Of a DNA stretch of 64,000 nucleotides, positions 4,378 through 42,789 are shown in pieces; within the stretch, counting starts at the first letter, position 1, and each line of letters opens with the position of its first letter. The position numbers and the translations under genes are program-made. A model generated the notes under the pieces. The model saw only the letters and a program-made list of their open reading frames with translations, ran no database searches and was not told the DNA's origin. This DNA is from a virus (lineage: Duplodnaviria > Heunggongvirae > Uroviricota > Caudoviricetes), in IMG/VR virus record IMGVR_UViG_3300030035_000024. One strand, 5' to 3'.

Positions 4378-5535
4378 ATGAAAAAATCCAAAAAGTTACT
4401 GGCAGTTTTGACCATAATGTTACTGATTGTCTGTATGGCAGTTCCAGTATCGGCGGCTTGGAAAATTAGTAAGAGTAAGGCAACACTGTTTACTGGACAA
4501 ACTTTACAGTTGAAATTGTCTGGGACAAAGGGAAAGGCAAAATGGGCTTCCAGTAAAAAGGCTGTTGCAACTGTTAGCAGTACCGGAAAGGTAAAATCGA
4601 AGAAAGCTGGTTCAGCTACAATCACTGCAAAGGTCGGTAAAAAGAAGTACAGCTGTAAATTAACGGTTGAGTCTCCAAAGCTGAATAAAAAGTCATTATC
4701 CTTAACAGTCGGAGGAACAAGCACTTTAAAAGTGACAGGAACCAAACAGGTTGTAAAATGGAAGTCCTCAAAGAAAAGTGTTGTGGTTGTAAACAGCAAA
4801 GGTAAAATTACAGCCAAAAAGGCAGGGACTGCAAATATTACGGCTACAGTCCTGGGAAAGAAATTCACCTGCAAAGTTACTGTGAAAGCTGTTGATGATG
4901 GATTTAACAGCAATCCAGGGGACGATTTCAATGGCAATAACCGAAACAATGACAATAACAATAATCATGGAAATCAAAACACAACTCTCCCATCATACGG
5001 TGTAACTTATCATGCAGAGTCTACACCATATGGGGCTGTGGCGATTCTGGAAAACCATTATGATTACACCATAGAACTTAGAGTTGATTTTGTATATTTT
5101 CTGAATGGTTCTATGATTGGAAAGGAATCTGCTTATAATTATGCTTTTGCTCCACACTCAAAATGTGCGCTTCAGGGTTGGAACTATGACAAAACATGGG
5201 ATTCTTTTAAGATTAATTTAAGTATTGAAAAAGCTTCTTCCAGTATAATAGTTAATAATTCTGGAATACACTATTCAGCCAATTTTGGAGCTGGAAATGT
5301 CATGGTAAAAATAAATAATAGAGGAAGAAAAACCACTTCCACCACTATTGCGGTTGTATTTTATCAGAATGGTAAAATAATTGGATATGATTATCAGTAT
5401 GCTCATGTAGAAAATCCTGGTTCGACTGCTTATCTTGAATTTAGCTTTCCTTATGACAGAAATTATGATACAATAACGCCTGATAAATTTGAAGTATATG
5501 TAAACAACTCTTACACATATGACTGGATGAACTAA
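4378..5535 (+). CDS. Secreted surface protein with three Big_2-like Ig repeats and a C-terminal beta domain
   Basis: ATG 4378 with RBS AGGGAGG. Signal peptide MKKSKKLLAVLTIMLLIVCMAVPVSAAW. Three repeats of about 60 aa (KATLFTGQTLQLKL...ATITAKVGKKKYSCKLTV). One of the few plus-strand genes, so likely moron/lysogeny-expressed. Confidence 0.6.
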   Translation: MKKSKKLLAVLTIMLLIVCMAVPVSAAWKISKSKATLFTGQTLQLKLSGTKGKAKWASSKKAVATVSSTGKVKSKKAGSATITAKVGKKKYSCKLTVESPKLNKKSLSLTVGGTSTLKVTGTKQVVKWKSSKKSVVVVNSKGKITAKKAGTANITATVLGKKFTCKVTVKAVDDGFNSNPGDDFNGNNRNNDNNNNHGNQNTTLPSYGVTYHAESTPYGAVAILENHYDYTIELRVDFVYFLNGSMIGKESAYNYAFAPHSKCALQGWNYDKTWDSFKINLSIEKASSSIIVNNSGIHYSANFGAGNVMVKINNRGRKTTSTTIAVVFYQNGKIIGYDYQYAHVENPGSTAYLEFSFPYDRNYDTITPDKFEVYVNNSYTYDWMN

Positions 5536-9341: not shown

Positions 9342-9442
9342 TCTCCGTATTGTGCCAGAATCCTTGATTTATAAAAACAGTGGACAGGCGCATCAAGGTT
9401 TACGCTTTTCGGCGGCCAACCTAGCCCACTGAATTTACCATA

Positions 9443-9913: not shown

Positions 9914-10176
9914 AGATTGATACCTGCCTTTCGTATAAAAGAGTGCCTTGAACTGTATGTAAATCAACAGGCAGGCGGCAAGGCATTTCCGCTTTTCGAT
10001 GATCGGTCTAGCCTGTTGGTTTTACCGAAATTTATCGACTTAATAAAAAAAGAGCCGCCAAGTAAGACAAAAAATTCCTCAAAATCGAGAAATATTAATT
10101 TCTTCTTAGCGGCTCAAAAATCAAGACCGTGTGTACTTCTTCATTAAAGAAATCATACCACACAATCAGTCAAAAA

Positions 10177-35293: not shown

Positions 35294-35639
35294 TTCCGTT
35301 AAGAATACTAATAAGCTGTTCTTGGTTAATTTCCTTTGTACATGGCAAAAAATGGTCTTTTATAGTCTGTAAAGCAAAAAACATAGGTGAAATTAATGAT
35401 ATTCGCATTGTAAATGTACATTCGCTTTGCAGAAAATATTTTATTGGATAAAGTCCGTGCGAAATGTGATAATCCGCAATAGCAATTGCTTTCACAATGT
35501 AATCTTTTGTTTCAATAGTTTTAGTTGAAAAATTAGTTTTCAGAACAAGTTCATTTTTAATTTGGAATAATGTTGTACGTAAAAATAATTCTACATCTCT
35601 TCTAGTAGGTGCAATGTATAAAATAATTGGTTTTCTCAT
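35262..35639 (-). CDS. Hypothetical (125 aa), paralog of the 34777-35142 gene
   Basis: MRKPIILYIAP...CTFTMRISLISPMF. Confidence 0.3.
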   Translation of the reverse strand: MRKPIILYIAPTRRDVELFLRTTLFQIKNELVLKTNFSTKTIETKDYIVKAIAIADYHISHGLYPIKYFLQSECTFTMRISLISPMFFALQTIKDHFLPCTKEINQEQLISILNGIDEEKNSYGN

Positions 35640-35757
35640 TTCTTATACCTTACATTCAAAATCCAGTGTGCCGACTTGAACGGCATAAATCTCCCAACGA
35701 GAAACACTGGAACTTTAAGGGGGAAAATGCAACTTCTGGCAATGGCAATTTGCCAGA

Positions 35758-35829
35758 TAGAAACAACAGGAATCGAACCTGTGTCACATGATATTCAATA
35801 TCATTGCTCTACCACTGAGCTATGTTTCA
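35758..35829 (-). tRNA. tRNA-like gene (72 nt): canonical D and T arms, anticodon loop AUUGAAU (anticodon UGA, Ser-type without a long arm), 1:72 U-U mismatch
   Basis: Minus-strand TGAAACATAGCTCAGTGGTAGAGCAATGATATTGAATATCATGTGACACAGGTTCGATTCCTGTTGTTTCTA. Followed by a structured region (TCTGGCAA/TTGCCAGA hairpin). Confidence 0.45.
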
Positions 35830-35882
35830 TATCACCGCCTGTCACGGTCAGTTTAGAAACTGAGTTGATTTTCACCCTTTAT

Positions 35883-37334
35883 TTATTCCACTTTGATACA
35901 ATCATATCTTTCTGAATTAATTACATTTTCCATAGCTTCAATCGGATTGTATCCAAGATTCTGTAAGATTTGTTTGAAAACTGTTACAGATTGACCACTT
36001 GCAAGTTGAACGCCTTTTCTTTTTGAATCCGCATGAAATACGTCATGTCTTCTTTTAACATTCCAGAAAATAATGTTTGGAATAACGTATCCGGCTTTAT
36101 GGAACTTGTTTGCCATTTTATCATAAAACGACCAATTTCGATTTCCACAATAATCAATTTCCATATCAGAAATTACGACAATAGCTTTCGGCATTTCTTC
36201 CTGTGAAATATTATTTTTTTCTGCTATATCAAGCACCTTTTCAAATGCAGCTTTAAGGTCTGTACTATTGCCCCAATCAGCCCTTTTAGCATTATTGATT
36301 TTCTGTGAAAGGGTTTCACCCTTTAAAACAACTGTTTCTGGATTACTGGAAAATGTCATAAACAAATTGTGGTATGCCCCAACATTTCTTTCGGCAAAGT
36401 ATATTGCCAATCCGATTGATGTTGCCATTGGTCTTCCATACATTGAACCGGATACATCAGCCATAATCAAAGCGTTTGTTCCCTGTTCTATGTAATTTGG
36501 GAGTGCTTTCCATTGTGCTTCAAGAACTTTATTGTTCTCTCGTCCGTAAAGGATTTTTTCCACGATGTCATAAGGATACAAAGTTGAAGCGTTGATTTTA
36601 ACTTCTCCTTTATCAGCCTTATTAATAAAATCATTAAATCCATCTGGATCATGTTTTGCAAAAGCCTTGCGATAAATCATCATTGCACGGCTCGGAACTT
36701 CTGGATATTTAATCTCATTCCATTTACCGGCAGACATAAGGCTTTCAACAACACCGATCTGTTTTCTCATGCTACGAACAATTCTCTTAAAGTTGTAGAC
36801 TGGATAACCCAACTTCTGTGCAGTCAAGATTCCTAACTTCCTAGTTTCTCTGCTACTTGCATCAGCAGTCTTAATCCATTTAGCAAGTAAAGAAATTGCT
36901 TTTCCATCATTGAGATTTTTCAAATCTTCCTCAAATTGTTTCTTCATAGATTTCCACATGTCATCTTCAAGTGGTGTTTCAATCAGTTCATACAGATCAT
37001 CGTATCTCCCGAATACTCCAATCAAATCAAGATTCGGTCTGAGTGCTTCTGGATGATGTTCAGCCATGTAACGGATAATGGTTCGAAAAGTTTTTCTCTC
37101 TCCAAGCCCACAACGAATATCTCTTGCATAAAAAGCAATCTTTGTGGCAAAGAGTTTATCCTGTGCAAATGCTTCTGAGAATAAAGTGGTGATTCTATTT
37201 TCATCAGCTTCTCTCAATGCACCAATAGTTCCGAACAGGTCAAGTCTTGCATCGCTTGTAGTATTCAGCGCAACTGCTCCGTTTTCGGTTCTTGTAAATT
37301 TTTTTTCTTGTTTCATTGCATTTGCAAAATCCAT
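35883..37334 (-). CDS. vWA-domain protein with N-terminal helical (TROVE-like?/DUF2828-like) region, 483 aa
   Basis: MIDAS motif DVSGSM (D-x-S-x-S) with downstream T and D in a vWA-like segment (aa 290-420). About 290 aa of helical N-terminus. Flanked by tRNA-like RNAs. Confidence 0.5.
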   Translation of the reverse strand: MDFANAMKQEKKFTRTENGAVALNTTSDARLDLFGTIGALREADENRITTLFSEAFAQDKLFATKIAFYARDIRCGLGERKTFRTIIRYMAEHHPEALRPNLDLIGVFGRYDDLYELIETPLEDDMWKSMKKQFEEDLKNLNDGKAISLLAKWIKTADASSRETRKLGILTAQKLGYPVYNFKRIVRSMRKQIGVVESLMSAGKWNEIKYPEVPSRAMMIYRKAFAKHDPDGFNDFINKADKGEVKINASTLYPYDIVEKILYGRENNKVLEAQWKALPNYIEQGTNALIMADVSGSMYGRPMATSIGLAIYFAERNVGAYHNLFMTFSSNPETVVLKGETLSQKINNAKRADWGNSTDLKAAFEKVLDIAEKNNISQEEMPKAIVVISDMEIDYCGNRNWSFYDKMANKFHKAGYVIPNIIFWNVKRRHDVFHADSKRKGVQLASGQSVTVFKQILQNLGYNPIEAMENVINSERYDCIKVE

Positions 37335-37487
37335 GTTTCTTCTCCTTTCAGGACACGAAAAATATAAAATATACGAATTAGATTTTATTTAAGTGAGTTG
37401 CTGCAAGCGTCCCATAAATTTCATGATGCTTTTTGGTTTCATAATTAACAGTTATGTCCAAAATGATTGCTGTAAGCATCACATAAT

Positions 37488-37577
37488 TGCCCCGACAGGA
37501 TTTGAACCTATAAAATTATTTGCAGTGAAGAACACAAACATGTTCTAATCGGTTTTCCGTAACCGATAACCGGGGCA
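37488..37577 (-). ncRNA. Aberrant tRNA-like RNA A (90 nt): acceptor, D and T arms retained, anticodon arm replaced by a 6-bp stem with a UGUUUG hexaloop
   Basis: Minus-strand TGCCCCGGTTATCGG...CCGATTAGAACATGTTTGTGTTCT...ATAGGTTCAAATCCTGTCGGGGCA. 7-8-bp acceptor pairing, T-loop TTCAAAT, and no 7-nt anticodon loop. Confidence 0.5.
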
Positions 37578-37578
37578 G

Positions 37579-37692
37579 TGACGAGGGATGGATTCGAACC
37601 ACCAACCTATGCCTTGTAATGGAGTAAATTGCTGTTATAGTCACAAACATGACTAATATTCTCATTGCTCTGTCCAATTGAGCTACCTCGTC
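37579..37692 (-). ncRNA. Aberrant tRNA-like RNA B (114 nt), 1 nt upstream of A; same CAUGUUUGUG hairpin plus a 27-nt insertion
   Basis: GACGAGGTAGCTCAATTGGACAGAGCA...AGTCATGTTTGTGACT...GGTGGTTCGAATCCATCCCTCGTCA. Perfect acceptor, D and T arms; AAUGAG/CUCCAUU long-range pairing encloses the insertion. Confidence 0.5.
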
Positions 37693-37751
37693 TAAAAACC
37701 AACAATAGATATGCTAAAGTAAGATATCCTATCTACACCTGGTAGATGGAA

Positions 37752-37823
37752 TTGCAGGAGACGGATTCGAACCGCCGTTCTCAAGGATATGAGCCTTGCG
37801 AGATTCCACTTCTCTATCCTGCC
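37752..37823 (-). tRNA. tRNA-Met(CAT), initiator-like 1:72 mismatch (G-A)
   Basis: GGCAGGATAGAGAAGTGGAATCTCGCAAGGCTCATATCCTTGAGAACGGCGGTTCGAATCCGTCTCCTGCAA; anticodon loop CUCAUAU. Confidence 0.6.
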
Positions 37824-38113
37824 GGAACCCGGAAAAACCGGGCTAGCAATAGGTTTATCGTGTTATGCTTTCCACTATCTACAAGTTTTAGTGCTGTAGA
37901 TTCACTGGATATTTTTATACGTCTTAGAACGGCATCTCTTGAAAACTCCTTTTATTAACGTGCGCTGCGTTAATATTTTTAACTCAGAGATATACCAGCC
38001 GGGAAATCAGATCCATTTAAGCTACGCCGTATCGCACCTAAATTTACCTAATCCACACGCTCAACTGGAAGTTTTTTCCACCCATATTACGGATGAATGG
38101 CATTTAGAAGAAA

Positions 38114-38186
38114 TGGAAACTCTGGGATTCGAACCCAGGACTTACGGCTTATGAGGCCGTTGCTCTTACCACTGAACTAAGCTTCC
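38114..38186 (-). tRNA. tRNA with CAT anticodon (elongator Met or Ile2)
   Basis: GGAAGCTTAGTTCAGTGGTAAGAGCAACGGCCTCATAAGCCGTAAGTCCTGGGTTCGAATCCCAGAGTTTCCA; canonical cloverleaf. Confidence 0.75.
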
Positions 38187-38335
38187 TGAGATACCAGAAA
38201 TAAGCCCGCCATAGATTTATTTCTGGCACTGTTGCAGTTCTTGACCGCCAGCCGCAACAAAGGTTTTCTGAAACGCTTTTGGATTCCAGAAAAGATTGTT
38301 ATAAAATGAACTTGCGGCGTTAGCAAAACCGCAAA

Positions 38336-38408
38336 CTGGGCTAACTGGATTCGAACCAGTAAATGCAGCAATCAAAGTGCTGTGCCTTAACCGTTTGGCG
38401 ATAGCCCA
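38336..38408 (-). tRNA. tRNA-Gln(TTG)
   Basis: TGGGCTATCGCCAAACGGTTAAGGCACAGCACTTTGATTGCTGCATTTACTGGTTCGAATCCAGTTAGCCCAG; closely matches the Bacillus-type tRNA-Gln scaffold. Confidence 0.8.
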
Positions 38409-38633
38409 TCAACCCCGGCGCACCATTAAAACCGGGGAAGTCGTGATATTAAGCTAAACAAGTATATAAAATAAGAGTTTCCGCTACTCTGGATGCCTCG
38501 ACTTATCACTTTCATAGGCTTTCCCGAACCTACATGGATTAAGTCGAAGCTGTGCTTTTATGAATTTAACCCTTTCGATTAATTCAATCGGGATAATTCC
38601 AATTGGAATCGGTAAATACATGGGGTTCTCCTC

Positions 38634-42045: not shown

Positions 42046-42789
42046 TTACTTTCTAATCAATCCTTGTCCTTGCAGTAAAAGTCTAAATGTTTCTTTACCT
42101 TTCACAGTGATATATGTCTGAACATTCGAATATCCAAACGGTGTTGAGAAATCTTTCATCTGGAAAAGCCCAGCTTTCCTATACGGTTCATAGGGTTTAA
42201 TAATATTGTGCCTATCACGGTAGATATAACCGTTTTCCGTAAGCCACTTATTAAACGCTTTAGGTGGAATGTGAAATTCCTTTGCTGCATCTCGAAAAGT
42301 TGTAAGGAGCCTATTATCTATCAGACTGTCGAAATAATCAGCTTTAGGCTTCTGTTCCTGTACTTTCTGTTCAAGTAACTGCTTTTCCTGTTGTTCTTCA
42401 ATCCATCTTTTAGCTCGTTCTATCGGATCAGCTATCTGGTAAGAATCTTGTTTCTGACCGACTTCATACTTCCCAGTCTTACGAATGGACGGAAGTACTT
42501 CTGATGTGACCCAATGTTTAAATTCTTTGGCTTTTTCAAGCTTACTACTAAAAATTAACGAGAAAAGACCGGATTCATTAATAGCTATGATATTCCTTGT
42601 CTGTGTCCCGTCATAAAATGGTACTTCTGCCTTATCTTCCAACTCTACATGCCTTTGTATATCTCGACTACCATTTTGGTACCCGAGGGCTGTTGCAACA
42701 TCAATTCCAACAAACCACGGAACACCATTTATCGTTACTGTTCTTACGCTTCCAAATTCTGGATTGCTAAAAATCATCATATCGTTCAT
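42046..42789 (-). CDS. Phage antirepressor (Bro-N N-terminal plus KilA-C-like C-terminal domain), 247 aa
   Basis: FGSVRTVTINGVPWFVGIDVATALGY Bro-N signature. Confidence 0.6.
   Translation of the reverse strand: MNDMMIFSNPEFGSVRTVTINGVPWFVGIDVATALGYQNGSRDIQRHVELEDKAEVPFYDGTQTRNIIAINESGLFSLIFSSKLEKAKEFKHWVTSEVLPSIRKTGKYEVGQKQDSYQIADPIERAKRWIEEQQEKQLLEQKVQEQKPKADYFDSLIDNRLLTTFRDAAKEFHIPPKAFNKWLTENGYIYRDRHNIIKPYEPYRKAGLFQMKDFSTPFGYSNVQTYITVKGKETFRLLLQGQGLIRK

What the first reader, a model, noticed from the sequence alone, without database searches (positions are those of the whole stretch)
35758..37692. vWA/TROVE-like gene flanked by aberrant tRNA-like RNAs: candidate phage Ro60/Y-RNA-type RNP module
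Two abutting minus-strand elements keep a perfect tRNA acceptor stem, D arm and T arm but lack a functional anticodon arm. They are A (37488-37577, 90 nt) and B (37579-37692, 114 nt), separated by 1 nt, with T-loops GGTTCAAATCC and GGTTCGAATCC.

In both, the anticodon arm is replaced by a 6-bp stem capped with the identical hexaloop UGUUUG (conserved CAUGUUUGUG). B also has a 27-nt insertion closed by AAUGAG/CUCCAUU pairing.

They sit directly upstream, on the same strand, of a 483-aa protein (35883-37334). That protein has a vWA MIDAS motif DVSGSM and a ~290-aa helical N-terminal region. A third odd tRNA (35758-35829; UGA anticodon without the Ser long arm, U1-U72 mismatch) lies about 55 nt downstream of the gene and is followed by further hairpins.

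Bacterial Ro60 orthologues (Rsr: TROVE plus vWA) are encoded beside Y RNAs (YrlA) whose effector domain mimics tRNA, often in prophages. This is established knowledge. The arrangement here fits that logic, but this hexaloop-bearing tRNA-like pair is not a form I recognise.
Basis: partly seen in the sequence, partly recalled or inferred. Interest (0 to 1): 0.78.

Follow-up and report, generated by a model that had tools for sequence, protein, structure and literature searches.

The report
Phage Ro60-like protein with tRNA-shaped partner RNAs
A gut-bacterial phage encodes a distant structural relative of the Ro60 RNA-binding ring protein, preceded by four small RNA elements (two shaped like tRNAs) that share one conserved helix-plus-ACAGCAA module, which looks like a previously undescribed version of the Ro60/Y-RNA particle.

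Summary

**RNA elements.**
- A is tRNA-like and has no anticodon arm.
- B is a complete cloverleaf. Its anticodon stem (AUG|CC / GG|CAU, loop AUUACAA) is split by a 40-nt insertion.
- The hexaloop is variable. What is conserved is an 8-bp helix followed by single-stranded YUACAGCAA.
S2 abuts the Shine-Dalgarno sequence.

**Comparative support.** Across 233 related loci the module occurs 340 times on the gene strand and 3 times on the other strand. All eight helix pairs covary. The module persists next to homologues only 30-50% identical. In one distant phage it flanks an RNA that matches Rfam YrlA.

**Verdict.** This is a new variant of the Ro60/Y-RNA system. Binding is inferred, not shown. 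The module also resembles Dictyostelium Class I RNAs.

The parts
37579..37692 (-). Element B: a tRNA cloverleaf (Val-UAC-like) with a 40-nt insertion in the 5' strand of the anticodon stem, between nt 29 and 30. The insertion carries the conserved core.
   Evidence: Rfam tRNA 49 bits with a 51-nt insertion; ARAGORN finds nothing. Homologues occur in 72 loci, 40 of them unique. The acceptor, T arm, P1 hairpin and split anticodon stem all covary. After deleting the insertion in silico, ARAGORN calls Val-UAC among its top solutions.
37628..37655 (-). Core of B: P1 hairpin (UAGUCAUG-UU-UGUGACUA) followed by UAACAGCAAU.
   Evidence: 8/8 pairing. T41-G45, G49, G51 and A60-A64 of B are invariant in alignment A1.
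37612..37622 (-). Anticodon-like stem-loop of B: CC-AUUACAA-GG. AUG (37663-37665) and CAU (37609-37611) extend the stem.
   Evidence: Conserved in relatives, with compensatory changes in the three outer pairs.
37488..37577 (-). Element A: a tRNA-like RNA with a 7-bp acceptor stem, a D-like hairpin and a T arm. In place of an anticodon arm it has the core, with a variant tail UCACUGCAAAU (core 37520-37546).
   Evidence: No Rfam or ARAGORN call. MFE fold z = -3.96. Homologues occur in 60 loci, 28 of them unique, with compensatory changes in the acceptor stem and D hairpin. Relatives such as L076 carry the canonical UUACAGCAAU tail. No in-silico deletion turns A into a tRNA.
37422..37483 (-). Element S1: standalone form. 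UGUGAUGC + UUACAGCAAU + an interior carrying an anticodon-arm-like hairpin (CAUAA-CUGUUAA-UUAUG, 37440-37456) + GCAUCAUG.
   Evidence: 8/8 helix. MFE fold z = -2.9 with P1 predicted. The same architecture, with loops of the form CU-NNN-AA, is seen in many loci.
37349..37414 (-). Element S2: standalone form. UGGGACGC + UUGCAGCAAC + an AU-rich interior + GUGUCCUG. Its 3' strand ends directly at the Shine-Dalgarno sequence.
   Evidence: 8/8 helix. Weak Rfam hit to Dicty_Class_I_RNA (19.5 bits). The position next to the SD is conserved across Lachnospiraceae loci. The fold energy is not distinctive (z = 0.0).
37342..37348 (-). Shine-Dalgarno AAAGGAG of the Ro60-like gene, immediately 3' of S2.
   Evidence: Read from the sequence. 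The gap between the element and the start codon is 13-15 nt in many loci.
35883..37334 (-). Ro60-like protein of 483 aa: a DUF2828 helical ring domain plus a DUF7788/vWA domain with a MIDAS site.
   Evidence: Pfam DUF2828 4e-41, DUF7788 7e-40, VWA_2 9e-7. PHROG 850 'RNA-binding protein' 4e-136. AF2 model pLDDT 86.3, pTM 0.85. Fold matches to Ro60.
35758..35829 (-). Downstream tRNA: anticodon UGA, short variable arm, U1-U72 mismatch. Probably an ordinary member of the tRNA array rather than part of the module.
   Evidence: Rfam 62.3 bits; ARAGORN calls it. It is homologous to tRNA-Thr(UGU) at the same place in L044, L062 and L070.
35735..35757 (-). Terminator-like hairpin followed by a U-rich tract; likely the end of the transcription unit.
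37752..38408 (-). Upstream tRNA array on the same strand: tRNA-Gln(UUG) 38336-38408, tRNA-Met(CAU) 38114-38186, tRNA-Met(CAU) 37752-37823. B and A continue this array.

Best explanation
The locus encodes a Ro60-type ribonucleoprotein in a divergent form. The protein is a Ro60-like ring (helical TROVE-type repeats closed by a vWA/MIDAS domain) from the family Pfam calls DUF2828 + DUF7788.

**The RNA core.** Four RNA modules lie directly upstream on the same strand (B, A, S1, S2). Each carries the same core:
- an 8-bp helix, strand a = NNNUC(A/C)UG paired to strand b = (U)G(U/G)GANNN;
- a single-stranded tail, YU(A/G)CAGCAA(U/C), immediately after strand b.

The core occurs in two circularly permuted topologies. 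In the embedded form the helix is closed by a short loop and sits inside a tRNA body (B, A). In the standalone form the helix is formed by the two ends of a roughly 60-nt RNA (S1, S2).

**Proposed mechanism.**
1. The core is the binding site of the Ro60-like protein, the functional counterpart of the stem-bulge of Y RNAs.
2. B and A are cut out of the tRNA-array transcript by the host tRNA-processing enzymes. They act as tRNA-shaped Y-like RNAs that tether a tRNA body or anticodon loop to the ring, as YrlA does for bacterial Rsr.
3. S2 ends at the Shine-Dalgarno sequence, so the protein can repress its own translation.

**Shown here:** the fold, the conserved module, its covariation, its strand and position bias, and its co-inheritance with the gene.

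**Inferred:** physical binding, processing, autoregulation, and the downstream role. That role could be recruiting a host exoribonuclease as in RYPER complexes, or acting as a decoy or guard for tRNA-targeting defence. I cannot separate these.
For: **Protein**
- Foldseek: the top six PDB hits are all Ro60/TROVE.
- BFVD hits include a TROVE protein of phage cr111_1 and a Ro-like protein of Gordonia phage VanLee.
- The MIDAS residues are invariant.

**RNA**
- Strict detector: 340 modules on the gene strand against 3 on the opposite strand, over 1.47 Mb in 233 loci. Hits occur in 80/80 close loci, 49/80 Lachnospiraceae genome loci and 21/73 distant phage loci.
- With a relaxed tail and a perfect helix, the counts rise to 67/80 genome loci and 33/73 distant loci.
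- 290 of 385 upstream motifs have a perfect 8/8 partner, against 11 of 309 elsewhere.
- All eight helix pairs show changes on both sides. Frequent G-U pairs fix the strand.
- In the window, 3 of the 9 motif matches cluster in 240 nt just upstream of the gene.
- tRNA mimicry recurs in many forms: whole cloverleaves, anticodon-arm hairpins, T arms, and tRNA bodies in which P1 replaces the acceptor stem.
- In L213, the RNA enclosed by the module matches Rfam YrlA over the full model length (38.2 bits, E 2.6e-6).
- The gene-proximal element abuts the SD in many loci.

**Precedents**
- YrlA RNAs lie near Ro60 on the same strand and mimic tRNA (PMC4201824).
- Phage phiLo Ro60 binds two Y-like RNAs encoded upstream of its gene (PMC12135203).
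Against: - No binding, expression or processing data exist.
- The protein has no sequence-level match to TROVE or Ro60, either as a single sequence or as a family profile.
- The window RNAs do not match Rfam Y_RNA or YrlA even at E <= 10.
- The module's sequence differs from the known Ro60-binding stem. phiLo Yrl RNAs and other Y RNAs carry a CGAA-bearing bulge.
- The YrlA match in L213 is below the gathering score and rests mainly on the tRNA-like domain.
- About half of the distant loci show no module with my detectors.
- S2 has no thermodynamic signal (z = 0.0).
- A second helix (P2) flanking the tail is not statistically supported.
- The pair counts come from instances selected for pairing.
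Confidence: 0.65

Rival explanations
1. The elements are purely cis-acting leader structures (an attenuator, or an operator for a different regulator) that control expression of the DUF2828 gene. They would not be trans-acting partner RNAs of its product.
For: S1 and S2 lie in the 5' leader, and S2 ends at the Shine-Dalgarno sequence. This position is conserved. Most modules lie within 600 nt upstream of the gene.
Against: In distant phages, copies also lie downstream of the gene (L185 3511 and 3629; L193; L168; L175/L178). There are up to four or five copies per locus. Many are embedded in tRNA bodies with their own acceptor stems, which host enzymes would cut away from the mRNA. One instance is YrlA-like. 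Autoregulation by the protein is already part of the best explanation.
Confidence: 0.12
2. The insertion in B and its relatives is an intervening sequence. These are real tRNA genes (Val-UAC here; Arg, Phe, Asn, Gly elsewhere). The helix + ACAGCAA cassette is cut out to give functional tRNAs, and the motif is the processing signal.
For: Removing the insertion restores a canonical 5-bp anticodon stem and 7-nt loop. The loops carry different anticodons in different loci (UAC, UCG, GAA, UCU, GUU, UCC). ARAGORN calls those tRNAs after in-silico deletion.
Against: The insertion point varies (28/29, 29/30, 31/32). Some loops have 8-9 nt or lack U33. A has no anticodon arm at all. Standalone copies and copies that replace the acceptor stem cannot be introns. 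No splicing enzyme is evident at the locus. From general knowledge, bacterial tRNA introns are group I introns of 200 nt or more inserted in the anticodon loop.
Confidence: 0.08
3. The module is recognised by another factor, host or phage (for example an RRM-type or tRNA-binding protein). It merely travels with the tRNA array in which the DUF2828 gene sits.
For: The gene is embedded in tRNA arrays in most loci. In Dictyostelium, the similar Class I RNA motif is bound directly by an RRM protein, CIBP/Rnp1A.
Against: The module follows the DUF2828 gene across phages with unrelated neighbourhoods, from gut siphoviruses to environmental jumbo phages, and always on the gene strand. No other conserved neighbouring gene was seen. 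I did not test whether tRNA arrays lacking DUF2828 also carry the module.
Confidence: 0.1
4. A and B are decaying tRNA pseudogenes, and the shared sequences are leftovers of a recent duplication.
For: A and B abut each other and share CAUGUUUGUG.
Against: The elements are conserved, with compensatory changes, across loci down to about 70% RNA identity. The same core occurs in non-tRNA contexts and in phages with about 30% protein identity.
Confidence: 0.02

Closest known systems
Bacterial and phage Ro60 (Rsr) with YrlA-type Y RNAs (Chen et al. 2014, PMC4201824; Rfam RF02553)
   Same: A ring-shaped Ro60-fold protein with a vWA/MIDAS domain. Small RNAs are encoded within a few hundred nt of the gene on the same strand. 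Each RNA is modular: a protein-binding helix plus a domain that mimics tRNA (T arm, D arm, acceptor). In the distant relative L213, the RNA enclosed by the module matches the YrlA model over its full length.
   Different: The protein is not detectable as TROVE by sequence; Pfam files it as DUF2828 + DUF7788. The helix + YUACAGCAA core is not the YrlA or Y RNA stem. In the window the tRNA body is not permuted: the acceptor ends are open and the binding helix branches from the anticodon stem. There are also short forms with no tRNA body. No Rfam Y_RNA or YrlA hit occurs in the window.
Thermus phage phiLo Ro60 with Yrl1/Yrl2 (NAR 2025, PMC12135203; PDB 9KOP, 9L5Y)
   Different: phiLo Yrl RNAs are stem-bulge-stem RNAs with a CGAA motif and are not tRNA cloverleaves. 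The proteins share 15% identity. Here there are four elements, one of them overlapping the ribosome-binding region.
Dictyostelid Class I RNAs (Rfam RF01414; Kjellin et al. 2021, PMC7919456)
   Same: RNAs of about 60 nt whose 5' and 3' ends form a short helix. The helix is followed on the 5' strand by CCUUACAGCAA, and the interior is variable. D. discoideum has GUUGAC-CUUACAGCAAU...GUCAAC-UG. The phage has UGUGACGC-UUACAGCAAU...GCGUCA-UG. The only non-tRNA Rfam hits on the standalone phage elements are to this family, at 18-24 bits.
   Different: The scores are far below the gathering score of 41.5. The distance from the GA/UC pair to the motif differs by 1 nt. Class I RNAs are eukaryotic Pol III-type transcripts with their own promoter element. 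They are reported as absent outside Dictyostelia, and the protein known to bind them directly is an RRM protein. Whether Dictyostelium has a DUF2828 protein could not be tested here.
tRNA genes with intervening sequences, and tRNA-like RNAs such as tmRNA
   Same: A tRNA acceptor/T-arm framework carrying a foreign insertion in or near the anticodon arm.
   Different: The insertion is 40 nt and sits in the 5' strand of the anticodon stem at a variable position. The same cassette also occurs outside tRNAs. There is no tmRNA call and no intron-type ribozyme hit in Rfam.

Membership tests
Ro60 / TROVE proteins | Ring of helical (HEAT-like) repeats closed by a C-terminal vWA domain | tested here: met
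Ro60 / TROVE proteins | Sequence match to the TROVE domain or to Ro60 proteins | tested here: not met
   Pfam at E <= 1 lists DUF2828, DUF7788 and vWA families only. phmmer and a family profile against PDB sequences find no Ro60.
Ro60 / TROVE proteins | MIDAS motif (DxSxS...T...D) in the vWA domain | tested here: met
   D293, S295, S297, T358 and D390 are invariant in alignments A2 and A3.
Ro60 / TROVE proteins | Binds Y RNA on the outer surface and misfolded RNA ends in the central hole | not testable with these tools
   Needs biochemistry or a structure of the complex.
Y RNA / YrlA | Reaches the Rfam Y_RNA or YrlA gathering score | tested here: not met
   No hit in 35300-38600 at E <= 10. 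The best hit in any related locus is L213 at 38.2 bits against a gathering score of 69.
Y RNA / YrlA | Encoded next to the Ro60 gene on the same strand | tested here: met
   Four elements lie within 360 nt upstream on the same strand. The gene-strand bias is 340 to 3.
Y RNA / YrlA | Conserved helix with an adjacent conserved unpaired segment that serves as the protein-binding site | tested here: inconclusive
   A conserved, covarying 8-bp helix plus the invariant tail CAGCAA is present. Its sequence differs from known Ro60 sites, and binding is untested.
Y RNA / YrlA | tRNA-like domain | tested here: met
   B reaches the Rfam tRNA threshold. A has an acceptor stem, a D-like hairpin and a T arm. 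The topology differs from YrlA, which is permuted.
tRNA (element B) | Continuous cloverleaf with a 5-bp anticodon stem and 7-nt loop | tested here: not met
   The stem is interrupted by a 40-nt insertion. ARAGORN finds nothing. Rfam tRNA scores 49 bits only by skipping 51 nt.
tRNA (element A) | Any tRNA model match | tested here: not met
   No Rfam or ARAGORN call, and none after any in-silico deletion.
Dictyostelid Class I RNA | Reaches the Rfam RF01414 gathering score (41.5 bits) | tested here: not met
   19.5 bits (window S2), 23.6 and 23.7 bits (L074), 18.3 and 18.5 bits (L213).
Dictyostelid Class I RNA | Terminal helix, 11-nt CCUUACAGCAA motif after the 5' strand, about 60 nt, variable interior | tested here: met
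   S1 is 62 nt and S2 is 66 nt. The motif matches 9-10 of 11 positions. The median length of standalone elements is about 62 nt.
Pfam DUF2828 + DUF7788 | Scores above the curated cut-offs | tested here: met
   141.6 bits (cut-off 29) and 137 bits (cut-off 27.1).

The most novel reading that the evidence does not exclude
The helix + CUUACAGCAA module may be the ancient partner RNA of the whole DUF2828/DUF7788 Ro60-like family, which spans phages, giant viruses of protists and eukaryotes. If so, the Class I RNAs of Dictyostelium would be the eukaryotic members of the same RNA class. Class I RNAs are abundant, developmentally regulated, of unknown mechanism, and thought to be unique to dictyostelids. 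They would then work as Y-RNA-like partners of a Ro60-like protein.

Circumstantial support:
- The architecture and motif are near-identical.
- DUF2828 proteins occur in giant viruses.
- A 32%-identical homologue is present in the transcriptome of the myxomycete amoebozoan Echinostelium bisporum.

Against:
- The known direct binder of Class I RNA is an RRM protein.
- The Rfam scores are sub-threshold.
- A dictyostelid DUF2828 gene was not demonstrated.
- The Echinostelium sequence could come from prey bacteria or their phages.
Probability: 0.12. Interest if true: 0.9.

Novelty: new variant of a known kind. Interest (0 to 1): 0.72.

Why it matters
- **A function for two DUFs.** It would assign a fold, and a testable function, to a very large family of unknown function. 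DUF2828 + DUF7788 has 6,573 clusters at 50% identity with E <= 1e-3. The family occurs in phages, giant viruses and eukaryotes.
- **A second branch of Ro60/Y-RNA biology.** This branch is invisible to sequence searches, so it was missed by surveys that started from TROVE annotations.
- **A new structured RNA class.** The class is absent from Rfam and is simple enough to mutate. It comes in permuted and tRNA-embedded forms, including whole tRNA cloverleaves with a protein handle grafted into the anticodon stem.
- **An experimental entry point.** It offers a way to ask what Ro60-type particles do during phage infection: tRNA surveillance, decoys for tRNA-cleaving defences, or hijacking of host exonucleases. 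Cultivable hosts carrying related prophages exist, including Diplocloster hominis, Roseburia hominis and Fusicatenibacter saccharivorans.
- **A hypothesis for Class I RNAs.** It gives a concrete, cheap-to-test idea for the unexplained Class I RNAs of Dictyostelium.

Tried and rejected
1. **Rfam Y_RNA/YrlA on the window.** No hit even at E <= 10.
2. **Sequence searches against PDB.** The protein alone and a 44-sequence profile found only generic vWA domains. Only fold comparison revealed Ro60.
3. **The hexaloop as a functional motif or pseudoknot partner of ACAAGG.** Loop bases vary with no covariation. Rejected.
Not conserved. AUG/CAU plus CC/GG is conserved.
5. **A second helix (P2) flanking the tail.** Visible in S1 and several B-type RNAs, but 5/5 pairing occurs in 28% of standalone elements against 9-22% in shifted or shuffled controls. 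Not claimed.
6. **The motif as a genome-wide DNA signal (promoter or repeat).** There are 9 window matches against 5.9 expected. Those outside 37398-37637 have no helix context and lie in coding sequence. The strict-detector hit at 42078 is judged to be chance.
7. **Deletion scanning with ARAGORN.** It proved permissive, giving many alternative calls per element. Used only as supporting evidence.
8. **Promoter and terminator scans.** Counts are no better than shuffled sequence, apart from the hairpin after the downstream tRNA.
9. **Neighbouring ORFs.** PHROG and Pfam scans found no RNA ligase, nuclease or other partner.
10. **The Dictyostelium link.**
   - The AFDB library was unavailable.
   - The Avesson 2011 and Aspegren 2004 papers are not held.
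   - DDB_G0281243 is undescribed in the library.
   - The partial D. discoideum and D. firmibasis proteomes in a supplement contain no DUF2828-like motif.
   - A search seeded with a giant-virus homologue found Echinostelium and Closterium but no dictyostelid among the 120 proteins listed.
11. **The giant-virus locus L189.** It shows no module.


Full report
**What is at the coordinates.** All features lie on the minus strand. Reading 5' to 3':
- tRNA-Gln (38336-38408)
- two tRNA-Met (38114-38186 and 37752-37823)
- element B (37579-37692)
- one base
- element A (37488-37577)
- a 153-nt leader
- a 483-aa ORF (35883-37334)
- a tRNA (35758-35829)
- a terminator-like hairpin (35735-35757)

The window is a temperate siphovirus. 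It has an SPP1-type portal, an E-type capsid protein, a serine recombinase and an AntA antirepressor. Close relatives are phages of about 80 kb from human gut metagenomes. Related genes sit in genomes and MAGs of Lachnospiraceae, including a prophage-like copy in Diplocloster hominis.

**The protein.** Pfam gives DUF2828 (4e-41), DUF7788 (7e-40) and VWA_2, with no TROVE match. PHROG 850 calls it 'RNA-binding protein'. Neither the sequence nor a 44-member profile finds Ro60 among PDB sequences.

An AlphaFold2 model built on 46 homologues is confident (pLDDT 86.3, pTM 0.85).
- Foldseek against the PDB returns six full-length Ro60/TROVE entries first: phage phiLo Ro60 (9KOP, 9L5Y) and human Ro60 complexes. 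E-values run from 7.5e-8 to 3e-6. A gap then separates them from generic vWA domains at E > 2e-3.
- Against viral models, the family includes proteins of Pithovirus, Marseillevirus, CroV and other giant viruses. More distantly it reaches annotated TROVE or Ro-like phage proteins.
- The MIDAS residues are invariant across the family.

So the protein is a Ro60-fold ring protein that sequence methods do not recognise. The family is large: 6,573 clusters at 50% identity.

B reaches the Rfam tRNA threshold (49 bits), but only by skipping 51 nt. ARAGORN misses it. A is found by neither tool.

Comparison with 72 homologous loci changes the reading of B. The conserved CC-AUUACAA-GG, together with AUG before the insertion and CAU after it, forms a normal 5-bp anticodon stem and 7-nt loop. 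The three outer pairs change in a compensatory way: AUG/CAU, GUA/UAC, (A)CG/CG(U). B is therefore a complete cloverleaf with 40 nt inserted into the 5' strand of the anticodon stem.

Related loci carry up to five such RNAs in tandem. Their insertion points differ (28/29 to 31/32), and so do their loops: UCG, GAA, UCU, GUU, UCC, some with 8-9 nt. A truly lacks an anticodon arm.

The hexaloop is not conserved. Its central bases vary, and one lineage has seven extra bases there.

**The shared module.**
- an 8-bp helix, strand a = NNNUC(A/C)UG paired to strand b = (U)G(U/G)GANNN;
- a single-stranded tail YU(A/G)CAGCAA(U/C) directly after strand b.

In B and A the helix is closed by a short loop at the CAUG/GUG end. 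In S1 and S2 it is formed by the two ends of an RNA of about 62-66 nt, and the tail leads into a variable interior. These two forms are circular permutations of one unit.

**Statistics for the module.**
- The motif is enriched 0-600 nt upstream on the gene strand: 77 occurrences against 9 on the other strand in 80 genome loci.
- 290 of 385 such motifs have a perfect 8/8 partner, against 11 of 309 elsewhere.
- A strict detector finds 340 modules on the gene strand and 3 on the opposite strand in 1.47 Mb.
- All eight pairs show double changes. For example, pair 3 is UA in 49 cases, GC in 36 and AU in 8; pair 7 is GC in 46, AU in 25, CG in 17 and UA in 8.
- Frequent G-U pairs are compatible only with RNA of this strand. 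That alignment was selected for pairing, so one search is the fairer test.
- The module persists beside DUF2828 genes of environmental and jumbo phages that are only 27-49% identical to distant family representatives. It occurs both upstream and downstream of the gene, with helices such as UUAGAUGC/GCAUCUAG.

**tRNA mimicry is the recurrent theme.** The interiors of standalone elements often contain one of the following:
- an anticodon-arm-like hairpin, 5 bp plus a CU-NNN-AA loop (S1 has CAUAA-CUGUUAA-UUAUG);
- a T arm;
- a whole tRNA body in which the helix replaces the acceptor stem.

In L213, the RNA enclosed by the module is a permuted tRNA domain (T arm, closed acceptor, D arm). It matches the Rfam YrlA model end to end at 38.2 bits, E 2.6e-6, below the gathering score of 69. 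This is the design of bacterial YrlA RNAs: a Ro60-binding helix plus a tRNA mimic, encoded next to the gene on the same strand. It also parallels the phiLo Ro60/Yrl1/Yrl2 system, where binding has been shown.

**Mechanism proposed.** The module is the binding site of the Ro60-like protein. B and A are released from the tRNA-array transcript by tRNA-processing enzymes and act as tRNA-shaped Y-like RNAs.

The 3' strand of S2 is followed immediately by AAAGGAG, with 14 nt to the start codon. This arrangement is conserved in many loci. S2 would then let the protein repress its own translation.

The fold, conservation, covariation and linkage are shown. Binding, processing, autoregulation and the downstream role are inferred. 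I cannot say whether the particle recruits a host exonuclease, guards or decoys tRNAs against anticodon nucleases, or does something else.

**Rivals.** I considered four: a purely cis-acting leader, an intron-like cassette, a different binding partner, and pseudogenes. They are weighed in their own section. None accounts for all of the observations: multiple topologies, downstream copies, co-inheritance with the gene and the YrlA-like relative.

**Comparison with known systems.**
- It works like a Ro60/Y-RNA particle.
- It fails sequence-based membership of both TROVE and Y_RNA/YrlA.
- The RNA core is not in Rfam 15.
- The library of papers holds nothing on DUF2828 beyond incidental mentions.

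I therefore class it as a new variant of a known kind.

**An unexpected resemblance.** The only non-tRNA Rfam family that hits the standalone elements is Dicty_Class_I_RNA, at 18-24 bits against a gathering score of 41.5.

Curated D. discoideum Class I RNAs read GUUGAC-CUUACAGCAAU...GUCAAC-UG. The phage elements read UGUGACGC-UUACAGCAAU...GCGUCA-UG. The two share size (about 60 nt), a terminal helix with a GA/UC pair, the position of the motif and a variable interior. The spacing from the GA/UC pair to the motif differs by one base.

DUF2828 proteins occur in giant viruses. A 32%-identical homologue (E 1e-71) is in the transcriptome of the myxomycete Echinostelium bisporum. I could not establish whether dictyostelids have one. 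This remains a low-probability lead with a high payoff.

**Limits.**
- No expression or binding data exist.
- My detectors are regular-expression based and miss divergent modules. About half of the distant loci score negative.
- No calibrated covariance model was built.
- The control 'phage tRNA arrays without DUF2828' was not run.

Noticed in passing
window 37349-37483 (S1, S2); L074 2816-2985; L213 128-184: The standalone elements resemble Dictyostelium Class I RNAs: a terminal helix, CCUUACAGCAA and a length of about 60 nt. Rfam RF01414 is the only non-tRNA family hitting them, at 18-24 bits, which is sub-threshold.
   Followed up: partly
window 35758-35829; L014 and L020 about 4515-4590; L044 4498-4569: The downstream tRNA is homologous to a tRNA-Thr(UGU) in related phages. 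Its anticodon loop differs among close relatives: AUUGAAU here, ACUGAAU in L020 and ACUCAAU in L014. The L014 anticodon, UCA, would read the UGA stop codon. The tRNA has a U1-U72 mismatch and no long arm despite the 'Ser' anticodon.
   Followed up: partly
window 9362-9431 and 9946-10018 (minus strand): Two int-alpA RNA motifs are above the Rfam gathering score (53.6 and 45.4 bits). They flank a 174-aa ORF.
   Followed up: no
window 37440-37456 (inside S1): A hairpin has the exact proportions of an anticodon arm: a 5-bp stem and a 7-nt loop CUGUUAA. Equivalent hairpins in other loci carry other 'anticodons' (CUGCUAA, CUUUUAA, CUGUCAA, CUCUUAA, CUCAUAA).
   Followed up: partly
L223 888-1455; L185 5232-5428: In distant phages, the DUF2828 gene and its tRNA array lie next to other large structured RNAs: a ROOL RNA (197 bits) in L223 and a HEARO RNA (91 bits) in L185.
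   Followed up: no
L136 about 2750-2990: About ten tandem copies of a roughly 15-nt unit (AAAGATT[TC]AGAAGAG) lie between the last RNA element and the start codon of the DUF2828 gene.
   Followed up: no
window 37752-37823: The tRNA-Met(CAU) directly upstream of B has a non-standard 1-72 pair (G-A), marked by the Rfam alignment. The phage carries two CAU tRNAs.
   Followed up: no
P0424 (EukProt, Echinostelium bisporum); P0483 (Closterium); BFVD hits: DUF2828 + DUF7788 proteins occur in many giant viruses (Pithovirus, Marseillevirus, CroV, ChoanoV1, Bodo saltans virus), in a green alga and in a myxomycete transcriptome. The family is therefore not confined to phages. P0271 carries an extra PF01912 domain.
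   Followed up: partly
L013, L028, L039, L057, L062, L066 about 2250-2460: ARAGORN-92-nt 'tRNA-Tyr(GUA)' genes in related loci. Their Rfam scores are only marginal (32-36 bits), and the window has no counterpart. They may be further aberrant tRNA-like elements.
   Followed up: no
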